Of a DNA stretch of 64,000 bases, positions 11,353 to 29,513 are shown piece by piece. Position 1 is the stretch's first letter. Each line of letters starts with the position of its first letter. Location of the stretch: NCBI GenBank assembly GCA_009779935.1, contig WRAX01000001.1, positions 37,758-101,757 on the forward strand. Direction: 5' to 3'. The position numbers and the translations under genes were made by a program. The notes beneath the pieces are model-generated. The model ran no database searches. It was given only the letters and a program-made list of their open reading frames with translations, and had not been told where the DNA came from. This stretch comes from Defluviitaleaceae bacterium (GTDB taxonomy: Bacteria; Bacillota; Clostridia; Lachnospirales; WRAX01).

Positions 11353-12264
11353 CTACCTTGGTTTTATGGGCAACAGAAGGTCCAGTTGTTTTTCACCTGC
11401 GGGGATGTTTGGCGAGATAAAGTCCTCGTAATTCATCACCATCTCCTCCAACCATTGCCGGGCAAAGTCATTTTCATATTTTTCGCTTTGTGTGGACCAA
11501 TTGTACAAGGCCTCCCAACGCTCTCCAATTTCATTCATATTGGCGGAAACGCTGGCGAATAAGCCACCTGCAAAGCTTTTTTTAACAAAGGGGGCAGGCA
11601 CCACAAAATCATCGGGAATTGTCGTCCACAACTCGTAACCATATCGGGGGGATGACTGGCAGGGTTCGGGGTTATTAAATCCAAAACTGCGGTGGCCTGC
11701 ACGGGTGTGCAGCTTATGCTCCAATATAAACGGGTCAAAGATGGCAGAGCAGTCCATCTCCGGCGTTTCGCTTATTACATTGTGGGTGGCAAATGTCATG
11801 GCCGGCAATTCAACAATCCTCACATTTTTCAAGTTCTCCATGGTTATTATCCTTTCGGAGAGGTTAATTTTGGGGATGTCTTCATAAACGGTATCCGCCG
11901 CCGCCAAATGTTGCAGCATTTGGGTTAAATTTTGGCTTTGATGTATGCGCCCTATAATACTTTCCACAATATGGCTTAATGTAGCATACACGGCCGTTTT
12001 TTGCCGCAATTTTTCCAGATGGGAAGTTAGTATTTCAAGTGCCGTTTTTGGGTTATTTGCGGCAAAAATACGCTCGATATCCCCAATGGGCATTTTTAGC
12101 TTGCGCAGCAGCACAATATGCTGGATGCGTGCGGTGTTTTCTTCGTCATAATAACGATAGCCATTTTCTGCACGTTTGCTGGCAAGGATGCCGTTTTGCT
12201 CCCAATGGCGCAGGGTGCGGTTAGATATATTGTGCATTTTGGCAACTTCACCTATTCTAATCAT
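11353..12264 (-). CDS. MerR-family transcriptional regulator with a C-terminal GyrI-like/effector-binding domain
   Basis: MIRIGEVAKMHNISNRTLRHWE is the MerR helix-turn-helix. The start at 12264 follows GAGGAGGGG. The C-terminal ~150 aa resemble small-molecule-binding GyrI-like domains. Confidence 0.8.
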   Translation of the reverse strand: MIRIGEVAKMHNISNRTLRHWEQNGILASKRAENGYRYYDEENTARIQHIVLLRKLKMPIGDIERIFAANNPKTALEILTSHLEKLRQKTAVYATLSHIVESIIGRIHQSQNLTQMLQHLAAADTVYEDIPKINLSERIITMENLKNVRIVELPAMTFATHNVISETPEMDCSAIFDPFILEHKLHTRAGHRSFGFNNPEPCQSSPRYGYELWTTIPDDFVVPAPFVKKSFAGGLFASVSANMNEIGERWEALYNWSTQSEKYENDFARQWLEEMVMNYEDFISPNIPAGEKQLDLLLPIKPR

Positions 12265-26111: not shown

Positions 26112-26605
26112 TTAGGATATATACTTTCGCATATTCTTTAACGCATTTTTCTCCAAACGGCTTACTTGTGCTTGGCTTATGCCTATTTCATCCGCCACCT
26201 CCATTTGGGTTTTGCCTTCAAAAAAGCGTAGGTTGATAATATGCCTTTCCCGCTCGCCCAGCCTTTTCATGGCTTCTGAAAGGGAGATGTTTTCCAGCCA
26301 CATGGCATCGGTATTTTTGTCATCACTTAGCTGGTCCATAACAAAAAGTGCATCTGTGCCGTCGTTATAAACGGGTTCGAAAAGTGATACGGGCTCCTGT
26401 ATGGCATCAAGGGCAAAAACCACTTCTTGCCGGGAAACGCCCAACTCCACAGCAATTTCTTCGATGGTGGGTTCTTTGCTGTTTTGGTTTATCAGCCGCT
26501 CCTTAGCTTGCAGGGCTTTGTAGGCAATGTCCCTTAAACTTCGGCTTACCCTGATGGAATTATTGTCCCTTAAATATCGCCTAATTTCACCTATTATCAT
26601 TGGTA
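26112..26605 (-). CDS. sigG: sigG 3' segment (regions 2.4-4 of sporulation sigma factor G), separated from its 5' segment
   Basis: PMIIGEIRRYLRDNNSIRVSRSLRDIAYKAL...GISQAQVSRLEK is near-identical to my recollection of B. subtilis SigG from residue ~100. The MAFI- start in the ORF track is element-derived. Confidence 0.85.
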
Positions 26606-26629
26606 TGAATGCCATTAGACGAAAAACTA

Positions 26630-28000
26630 TTATAGCCCTTCAAACTTATAAAACACTTCAACATTCTCATCATCAATCACAATTTTTTCCACACACGAGC
26701 GCACGATGTTGCGTTGCTCATGCTTTGTCATATACTCCCAAGTTTCTTCAAGGGTTTCCAATGTTTTTTTCACACTTTCAATTTTATCGGCAATCACATT
26801 GCGTTCCTGCTCCCTTGTAATTTGGGCTCCCATATTGGCAAGTTGCTTTTGCTGCTCTTTTATGGTGTTTATCAAAATTTCGTCACCATTGTCTGCATAA
26901 AGGTTGTACAGACGTTTAATTTTTTTGGCAACCTCATCATATCTACCCTGCAACACTTCCAGCACCGATTGGGTTGCAGCCCGCACATTGTCCACCTGCT
27001 TTTGTTTTATGGAAAAAGAGAATAAATCACTAATTATAACGCTTTCCACATCACTGGCCCACAGCCTTTTGTTGTTGCAATGGGGGTCTTTTACCAAATG
27101 GGGCTTGCTTGTATCTTGGGAATAGCATACGATTTTACAATCATGCTTGCCCCATTTTTGATAGCGCATTTTAGCCCCGCATTTACCACAAAGCATTAGC
27201 CCGGTAAACAGATAGTTGCTGTGGGTTGCACGGTTAATGGACCGCTCCGCCATATAATCCATGGCTTTTTGATAAACATCTAAGCTGATAAGCGGTTCGT
27301 GCTTGCCCAAAAACTCTTCATCATTATAAATTATGTAACCGGCGTTGGATTTGCGCTCCAAAATCTGTATGGCAAGCTTTTCGTATTTAAGCCCCAGGGT
27401 TTGGGCAATCTTGCCGGTGGAATAACCTTCCAAATACAGGTCATAAATTTTGCGCACTGTTTCCGCATCTTTATTTGGCACAAGTATGCCCTGCCCCTTA
27501 TCATAATCATAACCAAAGGGTATGCGGCCGCCGCCGGGCCAAAGCCCTGCTTTTACACGCTCTCTCATACCCATACGGGTGCGCTCTCTTATATTTTCCC
27601 GCTCCAATTGGGCAAATGCGGATAAAATGCCCAGCATAAGCCGCCCAAGGGGGGTAGATGTGTCCATACTTTCCTGCGTGGAAATGAAGTCCACGCCATG
27701 GGGGTTAAACACATCTTCAATCAAATACAATGTGTCCTTTTGGCTGCGGGAAAGCCTGTCCAATTTATAAACCAGCACCGTGCTGATGGTTTTATTTTTC
27801 ACATCAGCAATCATCCTTTGCAATTCCGGCCTATCCATATTGCTGCCGCTGTATCCGCCGTCAATATAATAATCAAAATCTTTAATACCCTTGGAAGCGC
27901 AGTGTCCTGCAAGCATCTGCTTTTGCGCTTCTATGGAGTAACCTTCCTCCCGCTGGGCATCTGTGGAAACCCTGATATAAATCGCTGCTTTGTGCTGCAT
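26630..28000 (-). CDS. Large serine recombinase (SpoIVCA/CcrB-like)
   Basis: 456 aa with AAIYIRVSTDAQ (catalytic Ser), a resolvase domain, a recombinase domain, a Cys-rich zinc ribbon (CGKCGAKM...C) and a coiled-coil. Confidence 0.92.
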   Translation of the reverse strand: MQHKAAIYIRVSTDAQREEGYSIEAQKQMLAGHCASKGIKDFDYYIDGGYSGSNMDRPELQRMIADVKNKTISTVLVYKLDRLSRSQKDTLYLIEDVFNPHGVDFISTQESMDTSTPLGRLMLGILSAFAQLERENIRERTRMGMRERVKAGLWPGGGRIPFGYDYDKGQGILVPNKDAETVRKIYDLYLEGYSTGKIAQTLGLKYEKLAIQILERKSNAGYIIYNDEEFLGKHEPLISLDVYQKAMDYMAERSINRATHSNYLFTGLMLCGKCGAKMRYQKWGKHDCKIVCYSQDTSKPHLVKDPHCNNKRLWASDVESVIISDLFSFSIKQKQVDNVRAATQSVLEVLQGRYDEVAKKIKRLYNLYADNGDEILINTIKEQQKQLANMGAQITREQERNVIADKIESVKKTLETLEETWEYMTKHEQRNIVRSCVEKIVIDDENVEVFYKFEGL

Positions 28001-28011
28001 AAAGCACCCCC

Positions 28012-28203
28012 TTAGCCATTAGCTTCATCATAACACAAAGTGGTGATGTTTTCAACGGCATTTTTTACCAATGTATCTTGGGGAGAAAGTCGCACATTAA
28101 CTGCTTGAATGGCTTCCAAAACCACATTGCTGTCCAGTATATATTTTTCCAAATCAGCCTTATTCACCTTTTTTCCATTAATGTATCTGGTTACACTTAG
28201 CAT
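28012..28203 (-). CDS. 63-aa hypothetical protein upstream of the recombinase
   Basis: The start at 28203 follows AAGGAG. Its stop lies 11 nt before the recombinase ATG. The longer ORF-track version lacks an RBS. Confidence 0.45.
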   Translation of the reverse strand: MLSVTRYINGKKVNKADLEKYILDSNVVLEAIQAVNVRLSPQDTLVKNAVENITTLCYDEANG

Positions 28204-28300
28204 GGCAACGCTCCTTTTTTGCATTGTTGCCATCAAATGCGGTGCGTAATCCCGGGTTACAAAAAACACCGTGTACATGCGCCACGGTGCCAAGGATATA

Positions 28301-28371
28301 CAGGGGTAGAGAGAATCGAACTCCCACTAAAGGTTTTGGAGACCTCTGTCATGCCACTTGACCATACCCCT
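28301..28371 (-). tRNA. tRNA-Trp (anticodon CCA)
   Basis: The reverse complement AGGGGTATGGTCAAGTGGCATGACAGAGGTCTCCAAAACCTTTAGTGGGAGTTCGATTCTCTCTACCCCTG folds as a cloverleaf. It has a 7-bp acceptor stem, the anticodon loop CUCCAAA and the T-loop TTCGATT. No CCA end is encoded. Confidence 0.9.
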
Positions 28372-28414
28372 AAATAAGATGCAGGGCGCACAATGTGCGC
28401 CGCTACAACCAATA

Positions 28415-28488
28415 TGCTGGTACCGAGATTCGAACTCGGGAGCCTCTCCCTTACCAAGGGAGCGCTCTACCTACTGAGCTATACCAGC
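28415..28488 (-). tRNA. tRNA-Thr (anticodon GGT)
   Basis: The reverse complement GCTGGTATAGCTCAGTAGGTAGAGCGCTCCCTTGGTAAGGGAGAGGCTCCCGAGTTCGAATCTCGGTACCAGCA folds as a canonical cloverleaf with the anticodon loop TTGGTAA. Confidence 0.92.
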
Positions 28489-28554
28489 AAATATTTCAAC
28501 AAAAGATATTCTACCACGCCAAAGGGCATTTGTCAACAAAAATTTTTGGGAAAT

Positions 28555-29112
28555 TTATATTTGGGGACAGGAAGGGTTTGACAGCTTTTTTATCAGGTCA
28601 TCATGGGTGGTTAAGTTGATTTGGGTGCCTTTGGCTGCGGTTAGGTTGCAGTGTTTTAACCAATCACGCCATTTTTGTATACCAAACATGGTGGATATGG
28701 TTTGCCACGATGGTGTGCCTTGTGTCCTTACGGCATTGTGTTGCCGTGCTGATGGGGGGCGGTTTTTTATGTAGTCGTCTATAAATTGCGCTTGCCAGTG
28801 CTCCTTGGTTTGATGGGAGTAAGGGCGGGAAGGGGATGGTTGGTTTTGGGGGTAGTGTTTTTCCAAAAAGTCTTTTAAGTTTATTCCAAAGCGCAGTTTT
28901 ATGACGGTGTGGGGCGGCAAGGTTTTTTTCTTAAATTCTGCTGTGCGCGGCGGGCGGCCATTGTCTATGATAAACTGATTTATGGTATCGAAGATGGTTT
29001 GCTCGCTCCAGCCCATAAAGGGCATGTGGTCAAGGATTTCTTGTATTTTTTCTTTTGTGCCTTGGTCTGTCACCACATCCAATGCTGCCTGTAAGGCTTG
29101 TTTTCGTGTCAT
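28555..29112 (-). CDS. Hypothetical protein with two homing-endonuclease-associated-repeat-like (HEARO-like) modules
   Basis: 185 aa. It has two repeats of the pattern W..Q.I...I..F....GR.P...EF......P....I...FG....W/FL. AGGAGG lies 7 nt upstream, directly after the premature stop of the sigG 5' fragment. Confidence 0.5.
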   Translation of the reverse strand: MTRKQALQAALDVVTDQGTKEKIQEILDHMPFMGWSEQTIFDTINQFIIDNGRPPRTAEFKKKTLPPHTVIKLRFGINLKDFLEKHYPQNQPSPSRPYSHQTKEHWQAQFIDDYIKNRPPSARQHNAVRTQGTPSWQTISTMFGIQKWRDWLKHCNLTAAKGTQINLTTHDDLIKKLSNPSCPQI

Positions 29113-29149
29113 TTAGCATCCTCCTATTATCAATTTCGCTTAATGACAT

Positions 29150-29450
29150 TCATTGGTACAGCATATGTGGAAAATTTTACGCCATGGCTGGTGTCAAAAT
29201 TGTCTATAGCTTTAATAAGGCCAATGCAGCCCACTTGGAATATATCATCAATATTTTCGCCACGGTTGTTGAAGCGTTGGATAACGCTAAGTACAAGGCG
29301 CAGGTTGCCGTATATATATTCCCTGCGGGCATGTTTACAGCCCTGCAAAATCTTTGCAAAAAGTATATCTTTTTCCGCTTGTTTTAGAATAGGAAGTTTG
29401 GCAGTGTTTACGCCGCAAATTTCCACCTTGGTGCGCTGTGTGCCGCTCAT
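29150..29450 (-). CDS. sigG: sigG 5' segment (regions 1.2-2.3). As it stands, the ORF runs 6 codons into the element and stops at 29130.
   Basis: MSGTQRTKVEICGVNTAKLPILK...GNLRLVLSVIQRFNNRGENIDDIFQVGCIGLIKAIDNFDTSHGVKFSTYAVPM matches the SigG N-terminal ~100 aa. Confidence 0.85.
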
Positions 29451-29484: not shown

Positions 29485-29513
29485 TATTTTTTCCAAGGCA
29501 GGCAAGTTTATAC
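29485..29513 (-). promoter_or_regulatory. Sigma-F-like forespore promoter upstream of sigG (GTATA-N14-GGAAAAAATA)
   Basis: On the minus strand, GTATA lies at 29513-29509 and GGAAAAAATA at 29494-29485. This fits the GYATA / GGnnAnAnTR pattern as I recall it. Confidence 0.45.

What the first reader, a model, noticed from the sequence alone, without database searches (positions are those of the whole stretch)
26112..29450. Forespore sigma factor gene sigG is split by a 2.55-kb serine-recombinase intervening element
**What the sequence shows.** The 5' fragment (29450->29150) encodes SigG residues 1-100, ending ...FSTYAVPM. The 3' fragment (26596->26112) continues IIGEIRRYLRDNN..., exactly where intact SigG continues.
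- Both junctions carry the 9-bp direct repeat TCATTGGTA (26597-26605 and 29150-29158).
- Joining the two element ends gives an attP-like imperfect palindrome, cgcttaatgacattca-TTGGTA-tgaatgccattagacg, with 13/16 arm matches.
- The element encodes a 456-aa large serine recombinase.
- Deleting one repeat copy plus the interval restores an in-frame ~261-aa sigG.

**Why it is unusual.** As far as I recall, the developmentally excised elements described so far (skin in sigK, and elements in spoVFB, spoVR, gerE, spsM) interrupt mother-cell-expressed genes. Their excision is therefore not inherited. SigG acts in the forespore, which is the germline. Excision there would cure the element from every spore unless it is carried along and re-integrated. 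That implies either a reversible switch or a different, undescribed logic. The alternative is that sigG is simply inactivated in this strain.
Basis: partly seen in the sequence, partly recalled or inferred. Interest (0 to 1): 0.9.

Follow-up and report, generated by a model that had tools for sequence, protein, structure and literature searches.

The report
Phage-derived switch splitting forespore sigG
The gene for the spore-side sigma factor SigG is cut in two by a tiny phage remnant. The remnant belongs to a large, apparently undescribed family of serine-recombinase elements that target the same codon of sigG across gut Clostridia, and it looks built to cut itself out in the forespore, the cell that becomes the next generation.

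Summary
On the minus strand a canonical sigG is interrupted between codons 100 and 101 by a 2,553-bp element bounded by 9-bp repeats; joined in silico it gives 261 aa.

**Element contents**
- a 456-aa TP901-1-type large serine recombinase;
- a 63-aa ORF just upstream of it;
- a 185-aa ORF;

**Distribution.** At least 53 of the 80 closest recombinase loci in species-representative genomes sit at the same site, the CC of the Pro99 codon, in either orientation. So do about 20 IMG/VR proviruses. Relatives include real phages seen both integrated and as attP forms.

**Evidence that the split gene is in use**
- The sigG halves carry no stops and have dN/dS of 0.005-0.07.
- Their synonymous divergence equals the recombinase's (dS 1.70 vs 1.76), so the split gene and the element were co-inherited under selection.
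- The conserved small-ORF/recombinase unit has a forespore (sigma-F/G)-type promoter, not a mother-cell type.

**Best reading.** This is a developmentally excised sigG-intervening element that acts in the forespore and must therefore be retained or re-integrated. Neither excision nor re-integration has been shown. I found no published description.

The parts
29485..29513 (-). sigG promoter of forespore (sigma-F/G) type: GTATA, 14-nt spacer, TGGAAAAAATA. It lies about 35 nt upstream of the ATG and just downstream of a terminator-like hairpin at 29574-29552.
   Evidence: A PWM built from mapped C. difficile sigma-F/G promoters scores it 18.3; the training maximum is 18.7.
29150..29450 (-). sigG 5' fragment, codons 1-100 (regions 1.2-2.3 and part of 2.4). 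The truncated ORF reads on into the element to a stop at 29130.
   Evidence: (Sigma70_r2).
29128..29158 (-). attL: core TACCAATGA (29158-29150), crossover CC at 29156-29155 (the Pro99 codon), then the P' arm atgtcattaagcgaaat.
   Evidence: The same P' half-site is found at the junctions of 39 type-B loci.
28555..29112 (-). ORF185: a member of a conserved family that always lies on the P' side of attP. It has two HNH_repeat-like (helix-turn-helix) repeats and its function is unknown. It starts 17 nt after the stop of the truncated sigG ORF, behind the RBS AGGAGG, so it should be co-transcribed from the sigG promoter.
   Evidence: In phage L103 the homologue is the first gene after attP, upstream of terminase, portal and capsid genes.
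28508..28536 (-). Sigma-A promoter of the tRNA operon: TTGACA, 17-nt spacer, TAGAAT, with an upstream TG.
   Evidence: 11 of 12 matches.
28414..28489 (-). tRNA-Thr (GGT), cargo of the element.
   Evidence: Phage relatives also carry tRNA clusters.
28300..28372 (-). tRNA-Trp (CCA), cargo of the element. It is followed by a hairpin plus T-run terminator at 28289-28261.
   Evidence: A Logan contig of the same strain breaks inside this gene.
28222..28251 (-). Forespore (sigma-F/G)-type promoter of the small-ORF/recombinase unit: GATTA, 15-nt spacer, TGGCAACAATG. It lies about 28 nt upstream of the ATG.
   Evidence: PWM score 12.3. A homologous two-block motif sits at the same place in 37 related loci: median score 11.1 against 3.7 in 966 control upstream regions, p=4e-18. 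Sigma-E and sigma-K models give no enrichment.
28012..28203 (-). 63-aa small ORF (MLSVTRYINGKKV...), the candidate recombination directionality factor.
   Evidence: The family is conserved immediately upstream of, or overlapping, the recombinase start in at least 40 loci. Its size class matches known RDFs such as GirX, 42 aa. It has no family annotation.
28027..28055 (-). Possible sigma-A promoter for the recombinase alone: TTGAAA, 17-nt spacer, TATGAT, with TG. It lies inside the 3' end of the small ORF.
   Evidence: It is shared only with L083 and is not conserved in the family. Phage-type relatives have a clear sigma-A promoter at the equivalent place. Weak evidence.
26630..28000 (-). 456-aa large serine recombinase of the TP901-1/A118 type.
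   Evidence: Pfam Resolvase 7e-43, plus Recombinase and Zn_ribbon_recom. PDB match to the TP901-1 integrase catalytic domain, E=7.5e-39. More than 100 homologues at 61-85% identity. dN/dS 0.04-0.05.
26597..26627 (-). attR: P arm tttcgtctaatggcattca, then core TACCAATGA (26605-26597), with crossover CC at 26603-26602.
26112..26596 (-). sigG 3' fragment, codons 101-261 plus the stop (rest of region 2.4, regions 3 and 4).

Best explanation
The window carries a minimal, phage-derived 'sigG-intervening element'. It belongs to a large family of large-serine-recombinase (LSR) elements whose attB is the CC of the Pro99 codon in region 2.4 of sigG.

**Proposed mechanism**
1. In vegetative cells and in the mother cell the element stays integrated, so sigG is physically broken.
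2. After asymmetric division, sigma-F in the forespore fires two promoters. One is the sigG promoter, which in this orientation also reads into ORF185. The other is the element's own forespore-type promoter upstream of the 63-aa ORF and the recombinase.
3. The small protein acts as the recombination directionality factor. With the recombinase it recombines attL and attR, joins the two sigG halves in frame, and releases a 2.55-kb circle.
4. Sigma-G is then made. Because sigma-G reads similar promoters, it could keep the excised state locked during spore maturation.
5. The forespore is the germline, and the data show long vertical co-inheritance. The circle must therefore stay in the non-dividing spore and be put back into sigG at germination or outgrowth by the recombinase alone, since attP x attB is the default LSR reaction without an RDF.

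**Shown**
- The anatomy, the att sites and the in-frame restoration.
- Family-wide site specificity.
- Phage ancestry with attP forms.
- Purifying selection on the split gene, and equal synonymous divergence of gene and element.
- A conserved forespore-type promoter motif.

**Inferred**
- That excision happens, that it happens in the forespore, and that the small ORF is the RDF.
- Retention and re-integration.
For: **1. Anatomy and restoration.**

**2. Same target site across many taxa.**
- In 53 of the 80 closest loci from GTDB species representatives a sigG fragment abuts the recombinase 3' end, always broken at residue 100/101: 14 co-oriented and 39 inverted.
- Hosts include Oscillospiraceae, Lachnospiraceae, Defluviitaleaceae, Monoglobaceae and others.
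- More distant LSRs (37-48% identity) in 29-67-kb IMG/VR proviruses use the same site.
- About 32 of the 120 protein clusters closest to the SigG C-terminal half are 162- or 167-aa fragments that lack region 2.

**3. Phage ancestry and mobility.**
- L103 is a phage genome in attP form, ordered recombinase, attP, ORF185-like gene, TerL, portal, protease, major capsid protein.
- One phage group is seen both integrated (L111, L112) and as attP (L106, L108-110, L113, L117).
- L063 shows attP on a 2.8-kb contig.
- An intact sigG (P0121, 93% identical) exists in the same family.

**4. The split gene is alive.**
- There are no stops or gaps in 40 N-terminal and 14 C-terminal fragments. Median dN/dS is 0.07 and 0.03 respectively.
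- The window's sigG promoter is near-consensus.

**5. Vertical co-inheritance.**
- Recombinase identity tracks identity of the adjacent sigG fragment: Pearson 0.81 over 861 pairs.
- dS of sigG-C against dS of the recombinase is 1.70 vs 1.76 (window vs L081) and 0.58 vs 0.71 (L081 vs L087).

**6. Forespore-type promoter.**
- Upstream of the small ORF in 37 loci there is a two-block motif, G(T/A/C)(T/A)T(A/T), ~15 nt, (T/G)G(G/T)nAA(T/C)A(A/C)T. It lies 26-35 nt before the ATG in most loci.
- It matches mapped C. difficile sigma-F/G promoters (Saujet 2013, Table S6).
- Median PWM score is 11.1 against 3.7 in controls, p=4e-18.
- With unbiased anchored PWMs, 24% of loci exceed the control 95th percentile for sigma-F/G and 0% for sigma-E or sigma-K.
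- In phage-type relatives the small ORF has a forespore-type promoter (scores 15.4-16.7), whereas the recombinase has its own sigma-A promoter. That is the split regulation expected of an RDF/integrase pair.

**7. Precedent.** In sporulation intervening elements, small RDFs (GirX, 42 aa) switch an LSR from integration to excision (PMC5595907).
Against: - No excision product (attB or attP) of this strain was found.
- Promoter assignment rests on consensus matching to C. difficile promoters. Sigma-F cannot be separated from sigma-G, and recognition by sigma-A or another factor is not excluded.
- Many '-35' matches are GTTTT/GTTTA. These overlap a terminator T-run and carry little information.
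- The small ORF has no detectable similarity to any characterised RDF.
- Nothing in the sequence shows how a non-replicating circle would be kept or re-integrated. The sigma-A-like promoter for the recombinase alone is seen only in the window and L083.
- Co-divergence could partly reflect host-restricted horizontal spread rather than strict vertical descent.
- Whether the genome has a second sigG could not be checked beyond the 64-kb window.
- Termite-gut hosts are transmitted by trophallaxis, so sporulation may matter less to them than assumed.
Confidence: 0.6

Rival explanations
1. Forespore excision without re-integration. The element excises in the forespore, or in a fraction of forespores, and is lost, so spores are cured. 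The family persists through vegetative lineages and, for the phage members, through new infections. The mini-elements would be short-lived remnants.
For: - Intact sigG alleles exist in the same clade (P0121), so loss does occur.
- Many family members are real phages able to reinfect.
- No re-integration signal is visible in the sequence.
Against: - Synonymous divergence of the recombinase and sigG is equal up to dS ~1.7, and their identities correlate strongly. That indicates long joint descent.
- The elements involved lack any transfer or replication genes: the window's element, L081 with an opp operon, and L075 with redox genes.
- Host-like cargo genes would be lost at every sporulation.
Confidence: 0.17
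2. Plain insertional inactivation. sigG is dead in this strain, which is asporogenous or has another sigG copy, and the element is an ordinary integrated remnant with no developmental role.
For: - No excision junctions were found.
- Termite-gut bacteria can be transmitted without spores.
- The rest of the genome could not be searched for a second sigG.
Against: - Both halves are intact. dN/dS is 0.008-0.033 against relatives that carry the same insertion, at saturating dS.
- None of 54 fragments across the family has a stop or a gap.
- The sigG promoter is near-consensus.
- The recombinase, the small ORF and the att arms are all conserved and under selection.
- The recombinase unit has a forespore-type promoter.
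- No second sigG lies in the 64-kb window.
Confidence: 0.08
3. Stochastic or stress-induced (phage-like) excision in vegetative cells. The element acts as a population-level on/off switch for sporulation competence, a form of bet-hedging or active lysogeny, rather than as a forespore-timed developmental step.
For: - Phage members have sigma-A promoters for the integrase and presumably SOS-type induction.
- attP forms are assembled from metagenomes.
- The window has a sigma-A-like promoter just upstream of the recombinase.
Against: - The element that is conserved upstream of the RDF candidate is a forespore-type promoter, in mini-elements and in phages alike.
- Mini-elements have no repressor or induction module.
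Confidence: 0.12
4. Assembly artefact or chimeric contig.
For: The source is a metagenome assembly.
Against: The junctions are identical in three independent assemblies. Dozens of homologous loci show the same architecture, including a complete isolate genome, CP176394.1.
Confidence: 0.01

Closest known systems
skin element in sigK (B. subtilis SpoIVCA; C. difficile CD1231 with RDF CD1234)
   Same: - A phage-derived remnant splits a late sporulation sigma-factor gene inside or near region 2.4.
- It is bounded by short repeats and encodes an LSR.
- Precise excision restores the ORF.
- The RDF or recombinase is driven by the preceding compartment-specific sigma factor. CD1234 is listed among mapped sigma-E promoters.
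- Sizes run down to 2.6 kb.
   Different: - skin interrupts the mother-cell sigma factor and excises only in the terminally differentiated mother cell, so the germline keeps it passively.
- Here the target is the forespore factor.
- The promoter in front of the RDF candidate is of sigma-F/G type rather than sigma-E/K type, so the germline copy itself would have to be rearranged.
SPbeta prophage in spsM (SprA/SprB)
   Same: - A functional temperate phage and its reduced derivatives sit in a sporulation gene.
- The integrase is expressed constitutively while the small RDF has its own sporulation-specific promoter. The phage-type relatives here show the same split.
   Different: - SprB is mother-cell specific and SPbeta stays in the spore genome (PMC4191935).
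- The target is a sigma-K-dependent envelope gene, not a regulator.
gin element in gerE (GirC/GirX, B. cereus)
   Same: - A non-phage cargo element with an LSR, a 9-bp shared core and a tiny (42-aa) RDF of no known family.
- The elements in L081 and L075 likewise carry ordinary metabolic cargo.
   Different: gerE is a mother-cell gene, and GirX is not adjacent to or co-transcribed with GirC in the way the small ORF is here.
Active lysogeny / phage regulatory switches (Listeria phi10403S in comK; Streptococcus SpyCIM1 at mutL)
   Same: This is the only known class in which excision restores a gene in a reproducing cell and the element is kept as an episome and re-integrates (summarised in PMC7192596). 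The present case would need that logic.
   Different: - Those switches answer to environment or growth phase, not to a compartment-specific developmental sigma factor.
- The phi10403S family uses a serine integrase at comK, but it has no sporulation link.
- Re-integration here is inferred only.
TP901-1 / A118 / phiFC1-type large serine integrases
   Same: - Same domain architecture.
- Best PDB match is the TP901-1 catalytic domain.
- About 37% identity to the Enterococcus phage EFC-1/phiFC1 integrase.
- Palindromic attP of about 44 bp with a non-palindromic central dinucleotide.
   Different: - A distinct clade at 60-85% internal identity with its own attB in sigG.
- No cultured phage of this clade is in the phage collection searched.

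Membership tests
SigG (forespore late sigma factor) | Full-length match to the SigG equivalog models, scoring above SigF, SigE and SigK. | tested here: met
   The joined 261-aa product scores 465.8 bits on NF006071 (cutoff 372) and 455.4 on TIGR02850 (cutoff 457, so marginally below). SigF scores 294, SigE 126 and SigK 116. It is 93% identical to a protein annotated as SigG.
Large serine recombinase integration system | N-terminal resolvase catalytic domain with the serine nucleophile, followed by a recombinase domain and a zinc-ribbon/coiled-coil C-terminal part. | tested here: met
   PF00239 7e-43, PF07508 and PF13408. The YIRVSTDAQ serine motif is invariant in the alignment. PDB match to TP901-1.
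Large serine recombinase integration system | attP is an imperfect palindrome of about 40-50 bp, attB is a different sequence, and the crossover is at a short central non-palindromic dinucleotide. | tested here: met
   Reconstructed attP has 17 of 22 arm positions complementary around CC. attB arms show only 8 of 22. Independent attP sites in L103, L098, L099, L102 and L063 are centred on the same CC/GG.
Large serine recombinase integration system | A separate recombination directionality factor is needed for attL x attR. | not testable with these tools
   The candidate is the conserved 40-73-aa ORF upstream of the recombinase. It has no homology to known RDFs.
Sporulation gene-intervening elements (skin, SPbeta, vfbin, vrin, gin) | Interrupts the coding region of a sporulation-specific gene, and precise site-specific deletion restores the ORF. 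| tested here: met
   Shown in silico. The same breakpoint occurs in at least 53 further loci.
Sporulation gene-intervening elements (skin, SPbeta, vfbin, vrin, gin) | The recombinase and/or RDF is expressed from a sporulation sigma-factor promoter. | tested here: inconclusive
   A conserved promoter-like motif matches sigma-F/G consensus promoters far better than controls do. This is consensus matching only; there are no expression data.
Sporulation gene-intervening elements (skin, SPbeta, vfbin, vrin, gin) | [quoted passage not shown] | tested here: not met
   The target is sigG, the forespore factor (established knowledge). The promoter motif fits sigma-F/G and not sigma-E/K models: 24% of loci exceed the control 95th percentile against 0%. 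This is the feature that sets the present case apart.
Sporulation gene-intervening elements (skin, SPbeta, vfbin, vrin, gin) | Excision is observed during sporulation. | not testable with these tools
   The only relevant scan was uninformative.
Active-lysogeny / reversible phage regulatory switch | The element excises without lysis, persists as an episome and re-integrates, restoring and then re-breaking the gene. | not testable with these tools
   Indirect evidence only: long vertical co-inheritance with a gene that must be intact in the germline cell.
Temperate phage | Encodes virion, packaging and replication modules. | tested here: not met
   The window's 2.55-kb element has none. Relatives such as L103 do, so the element is a remnant and not a phage.

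The most novel reading that the evidence does not exclude
A germline developmental DNA rearrangement in bacteria. Across many gut Clostridia the sigma-F to sigma-G transition in the forespore would be gated by site-specific excision of a phage-derived element from sigG. Because this is the cell that becomes the next generation, the element, sometimes with kilobases of ordinary host-like cargo such as an opp operon, redox genes or tRNAs, would be carried in the spore as a circle and be written back into sigG at germination. That amounts to a programmed, reversible excise-and-reintegrate cycle once per sporulation. Phages of the same family would use it to ride inside spores.
Probability: 0.4. 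Interest if true: 0.92.

Novelty: new variant of a known kind. Interest (0 to 1): 0.82.

Why it matters
**Why the case differs from known ones.** Every described sporulation-linked gene rearrangement takes place in the mother cell, which dies. That is why those rearrangements are 'free' for the lineage. A conserved, selected interruption of the forespore sigma factor breaks this rule. It forces a mechanism for keeping or restoring the element in the germline.

**Biological consequences if confirmed**
- An extra genetic lock on sigma-G, whose ectopic activity is known to be tightly prevented.
- A new layer in the sigma-F to sigma-G hand-over.
- A route by which temperate phages enter and leave spores.

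**Practical consequences**
- About a quarter of the closest SigG protein clusters are half-genes. Genome-based predictions of sporulation ability in gut Clostridia that score sigG as 'absent' or 'pseudogene' will therefore be wrong.
- 'Phage-encoded sigG' calls at provirus edges may be host fragments.
- The recombinases form a ready-made set of orthogonal LSRs with a known attB, known attP sites and a candidate RDF.

Tried and rejected
1. **Metagenome scan for junctions of this strain.** I used a degenerate pattern matching attB, attP, attL and attR. It found one unrelated intact sigma gene and not even the source contig, so it was uninformative.
2. **Inversion model for the inverted (type-B) loci.** I considered sigG halves far apart being rejoined by inversion, because no C-terminal fragment lay within 10 kb. 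I rejected it: L189 shows the expected far end of a simple inverted insertion, with the ORF185-like gene on the opposite strand abutting the C-fragment.
3. **tRNA 'addiction'.** I considered that the element might hold the only tRNA-Trp gene. This is now less likely. Phage relatives also carry tRNA clusters, and a same-strain contig breaks inside tRNA-Trp, which suggests a repeat. It could not be tested without the genome.
4. **Conserved sigma-A promoter for the recombinase alone.** It is present only in the window and L083 and is not enriched over controls.
5. **Promoter capture of ORF185 as the RDF.** The orientation fits only type-A insertions, and ORF185 is absent from L075 and L081. It is therefore not the universal factor.
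6. **Family assignment of the small ORF and ORF185.** Pfam, NCBIfam and PHROGs gave nothing beyond a sub-threshold HNH_repeat hit.
7. **Short contigs as possible free circles.** The contigs of P0002, P0022 and P0024 were integrated forms or unrelated contexts.
8. **Literature.** Seven full-text searches and several papers and supplements gave no report of a sigG-interrupting element. Subscription-only literature was not covered.

Full report

Yes. All features below are on the minus strand.
- Codons 1-100 of a sigma factor run 29450->29150 and end ...FSTYAVPM. Codons 101-261 run 26596->26112 and begin IIGEIRRYLRDNN.
- The 9-mer TCATTGGTA lies at both junctions (26597-26605 and 29150-29158), with unrelated flanks. 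Deleting one copy plus the interval (2,553 bp) gives a 786-nt ORF.
- The 261-aa product is SigG by NCBIfam: NF006071 scores 465.8 bits (cutoff 372) and TIGR02850 scores 455.4 (cutoff 457), against 294 for SigF.
- It is 93% identical to an intact protein annotated as SigG from a Defluviitaleaceae MAG.
- The window holds no other sigG.
- The window is ordinary chromosome: gyrA, gyrB, alaS, gltX, glnS, clpX and dnaJ.
- The split locus is 100% identical in three independent assemblies.

**2. Anatomy of the element, in the direction of sigG**

1. attL. Its P' arm provides six codons and a stop to the truncated 5' ORF.
2. ORF185, which starts 17 nt after that stop behind the RBS AGGAGG.
3. A sigma-A promoter (TTGACA, 17 nt, TAGAAT), then tRNA-Thr(GGT), tRNA-Trp(CCA) and a hairpin-plus-T-run terminator.
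4. A promoter-like site, GATTA, 15 nt, TGGCAACAATG.
5. A 63-aa ORF, MLSVTRYINGKKV...
6. The 456-aa large serine recombinase, with Resolvase, Recombinase and Zn-ribbon domains. Its closest solved relative is the TP901-1 integrase.
7. attR.

The joined ends make a 44-53-nt palindrome with 17 of 22 complementary positions around a central CC. That CC is the first two bases of the Pro99 codon. attP sites of relatives are centred on the same dinucleotide.

**3. It is one member of a very large family with the same target**

The recombinase has more than 100 homologues at 61-85% identity.

*Species-representative genomes.*
- In the 80 best loci, 14 have a sigG C-terminal fragment directly downstream on the same strand, as in the window.
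- Another 39 have the N-terminal fragment directly downstream on the opposite strand.
- All are broken at residue 100/101.
- Hosts are Oscillospiraceae, Lachnospiraceae, Defluviitaleaceae, Monoglobaceae and unclassified Clostridia from termite, ruminant, rabbit, mouse, chicken and human guts.
- They include a complete isolate genome, CP176394.1, with a 6.8-kb element.

*Orientation.* The two orientations are explained by nearly palindromic attP arms combined with a CC or GG centre. L189 shows the far end of an inverted insertion.

*Viral contigs.*
- IMG/VR holds further members at 44-58% identity.
- A separate LSR group at 37% identity sits in 29-56-kb proviruses at the same site.

*Prevalence.* Of the 120 protein clusters closest to the SigG C-terminal half, about 32 are 162- or 167-aa half-proteins.

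**4. Origin**

- L103 is a phage genome in attP form. Its order is replication initiator, methyltransferase, recombinase, attP, ORF185-like gene, TerL, portal, protease, major capsid protein.
- One phage group is present both integrated in sigG and as attP.
- The window's element keeps the two att-proximal modules of such a phage, ORF185 on one side and the small ORF with the recombinase on the other, plus tRNAs. Phage relatives carry tRNAs too.
- Other reduced members carry non-phage cargo: an oppABCDF operon in L081 and CoA-disulfide-reductase-like, AhpC, MarR, LysR and sulfite-reductase-like genes in L075.

**5. Is the split gene dead or in use?**

- None of 40 N-terminal and 14 C-terminal fragments has a stop or an indel. 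Median dN/dS is 0.07 and 0.03, with synonymous sites mostly saturated.
- Within the window's own clade, sigG halves show dN/dS of 0.005-0.033.
- Their dS equals that of the recombinase: 1.70 vs 1.76 for window-L081 and 0.58 vs 0.71 for L081-L087.
- Recombinase identity predicts identity of the adjacent sigG fragment (Pearson 0.81, Spearman 0.72, 861 pairs).
- The sigG promoter in the window (GTATA, 14 nt, TGGAAAAAATA) scores 18.3 on a sigma-F/G PWM whose training maximum is 18.7.

Together these indicate that gene and element have descended together for a long time while sigG stayed under strong selection. Simple pseudogenisation does not fit.

**6. Regulation**

*The small ORF.* A 40-73-aa ORF with the motif M-x-I/V-x-R-Y/F-V/I-N-G-K/E-K precedes or overlaps the recombinase start in at least 40 loci.

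*Its promoter.*
- Upstream of the small ORF, and 26-35 nt before its ATG in most loci, lies a conserved two-block motif with a 15-nt spacer in most loci.
- Its -10 block reads GTCAATAAT, GGCAATACT, GGACATACT, GGGAATACT or GGCAACAAT. These are the same words as mapped C. difficile forespore promoters: spoIIQ GTCAATAAT, spoIIR GGACATAAT, CD2465 GGGAATACT and CD2841 GGCAACAAT (Saujet 2013, Table S6).
- A PWM from those promoters gives a median of 11.1 in 37 loci against 3.7 in 966 control upstream regions from the same loci. Mann-Whitney p is 4e-18, and 68% of loci exceed the control 95th percentile.

*Phage-type relatives.*
- In three of four examined, the small ORF keeps a forespore-type promoter. 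L099 has GAATA, 14 nt, TGGTTATAATA (score 16.7) and L102 has GTATA, 14 nt, TGGATATAATT (score 15.4).
- The recombinase has its own sigma-A promoter.
- This is the division of labour known for SprA/SprB and CD1231/CD1234, but with the forespore sigma factor in place of the mother-cell one.

**7. Mechanism proposed**

Section 6 and the Best explanation section give the model:
- sigma-F-driven expression of the RDF candidate with the recombinase in the forespore;
- attL x attR recombination at the CC of Pro99;
- an intact sigG, then sigma-G;
- the circle retained in the non-dividing spore;
- re-integration by the recombinase alone at germination.

Sections 1-6 are shown at sequence and comparative level. 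Excision, its compartment, the RDF role and re-integration are inferences.

The main weaknesses are:
- the lack of any observed junction for this strain;
- promoter calls that rest on consensus matching only;
- the possibility that host-restricted horizontal spread inflates the co-divergence signal.

**8. Comparison with what is known**

- The closest systems are skin/sigK, SPbeta/spsM and gin/gerE. They share the LSR, a small RDF, short cores and phage ancestry or cargo.
- All of them interrupt mother-cell genes and excise only in the mother cell.
- The only known reversible gene-restoring switches in reproducing cells are the active-lysogeny cases at comK and mutL.
- The present family has the architecture of the former and would need the logic of the latter.
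- I found no paper describing a sigG-interrupting element. Only open-access literature and bioRxiv were searchable.

**9. Verdict**

- Classification: a new variant of a known kind, namely a sporulation gene-intervening element that targets the forespore (germline) sigma factor and carries forespore-type control. It is widespread and apparently undescribed.
- Interest 0.82. Confidence in the forespore-excision model 0.6. Probability of the full excise-and-reintegrate cycle about 0.4.

Noticed in passing
window 28300-28536 (minus strand): Two tRNA genes, Thr-GGT and Trp-CCA, sit inside the element with a near-consensus sigma-A promoter and a terminator. Phage relatives also carry tRNA clusters (Glu, Thr, Thr, Gly). 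A same-strain Logan contig ends inside tRNA-Trp, which hints at another copy elsewhere.
   Followed up: partly
L081 3001-9681 versus L092 10971-17646: The oppABCDF operon and a divergent ORF lie inside the sigG element in L081. In L092 the homologous block (about 80% nt identity) starts 186 nt downstream of an intact sigG, and the contig ends exactly at the end of oppF. Either the element moved to a secondary site next to sigG, or neighbouring host genes were captured into the element.
   Followed up: partly
L063 1350-1420; L103 around 11356-11420; L098, L099, L102: Unintegrated attP forms are assembled in MAG and viral contigs, always ordered recombinase, attP, ORF185-like gene (MTRKxAxLxA...). 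The ORF185 family has two HNH_repeat-like helix-turn-helix repeats and no known function.
   Followed up: partly
window 29105-29135: ORF185 begins 17 nt after the stop of the truncated sigG 5' ORF, behind a strong RBS. In the integrated state it should therefore be transcribed from the sigG forespore promoter. This holds only for insertions in this orientation.
   Followed up: partly
L177-L185 (IMG/VR proviruses of 29-56 kb): A second, distant LSR lineage (37% identity) uses the same sigG codon-100 site. In L176, L192 and L193 a sigG C-terminal fragment sits at the provirus edge with no recombinase within 4 kb. sigG appears to be a general prophage hot spot in gut Clostridia, and sigG fragments at provirus edges could be mistaken for phage-encoded sigma factors.
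   Followed up: partly
L036, L038, L040, L042, L048, L052 and others: Close recombinase relatives (57-60% identity) have the same small ORF and forespore-type promoter but no sigG fragment within 6 kb. Their targets are unknown. L023 looks like an attP-form phage, with a terminase small subunit after the recombinase. L195 has a RelB/PIN pair downstream.
   Followed up: no
L060 1-3333: An attR-like junction with a sigG C-terminal fragment is present, but the recombinase lies 1.5 kb away, is divergently oriented, and has no N-terminal fragment after it. The contig is binned in a methanogen MAG, so it is probably mis-binned and/or rearranged.
   Followed up: partly
window, L081 and L092 flanks of sigG: sigG and its promoter are about 80% identical in three related genomes, but the surroundings are completely different. 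Only L092 has the usual ftsQ-ftsZ-proximal position. None shows spoIIGA-sigE immediately upstream.
   Followed up: no
window 28662-28886 (minus strand, inside ORF185): Two further matches to the sigma-F/G promoter PWM (scores 14.9 and 13.8) lie inside the ORF185 coding region. They may be chance matches.
   Followed up: no
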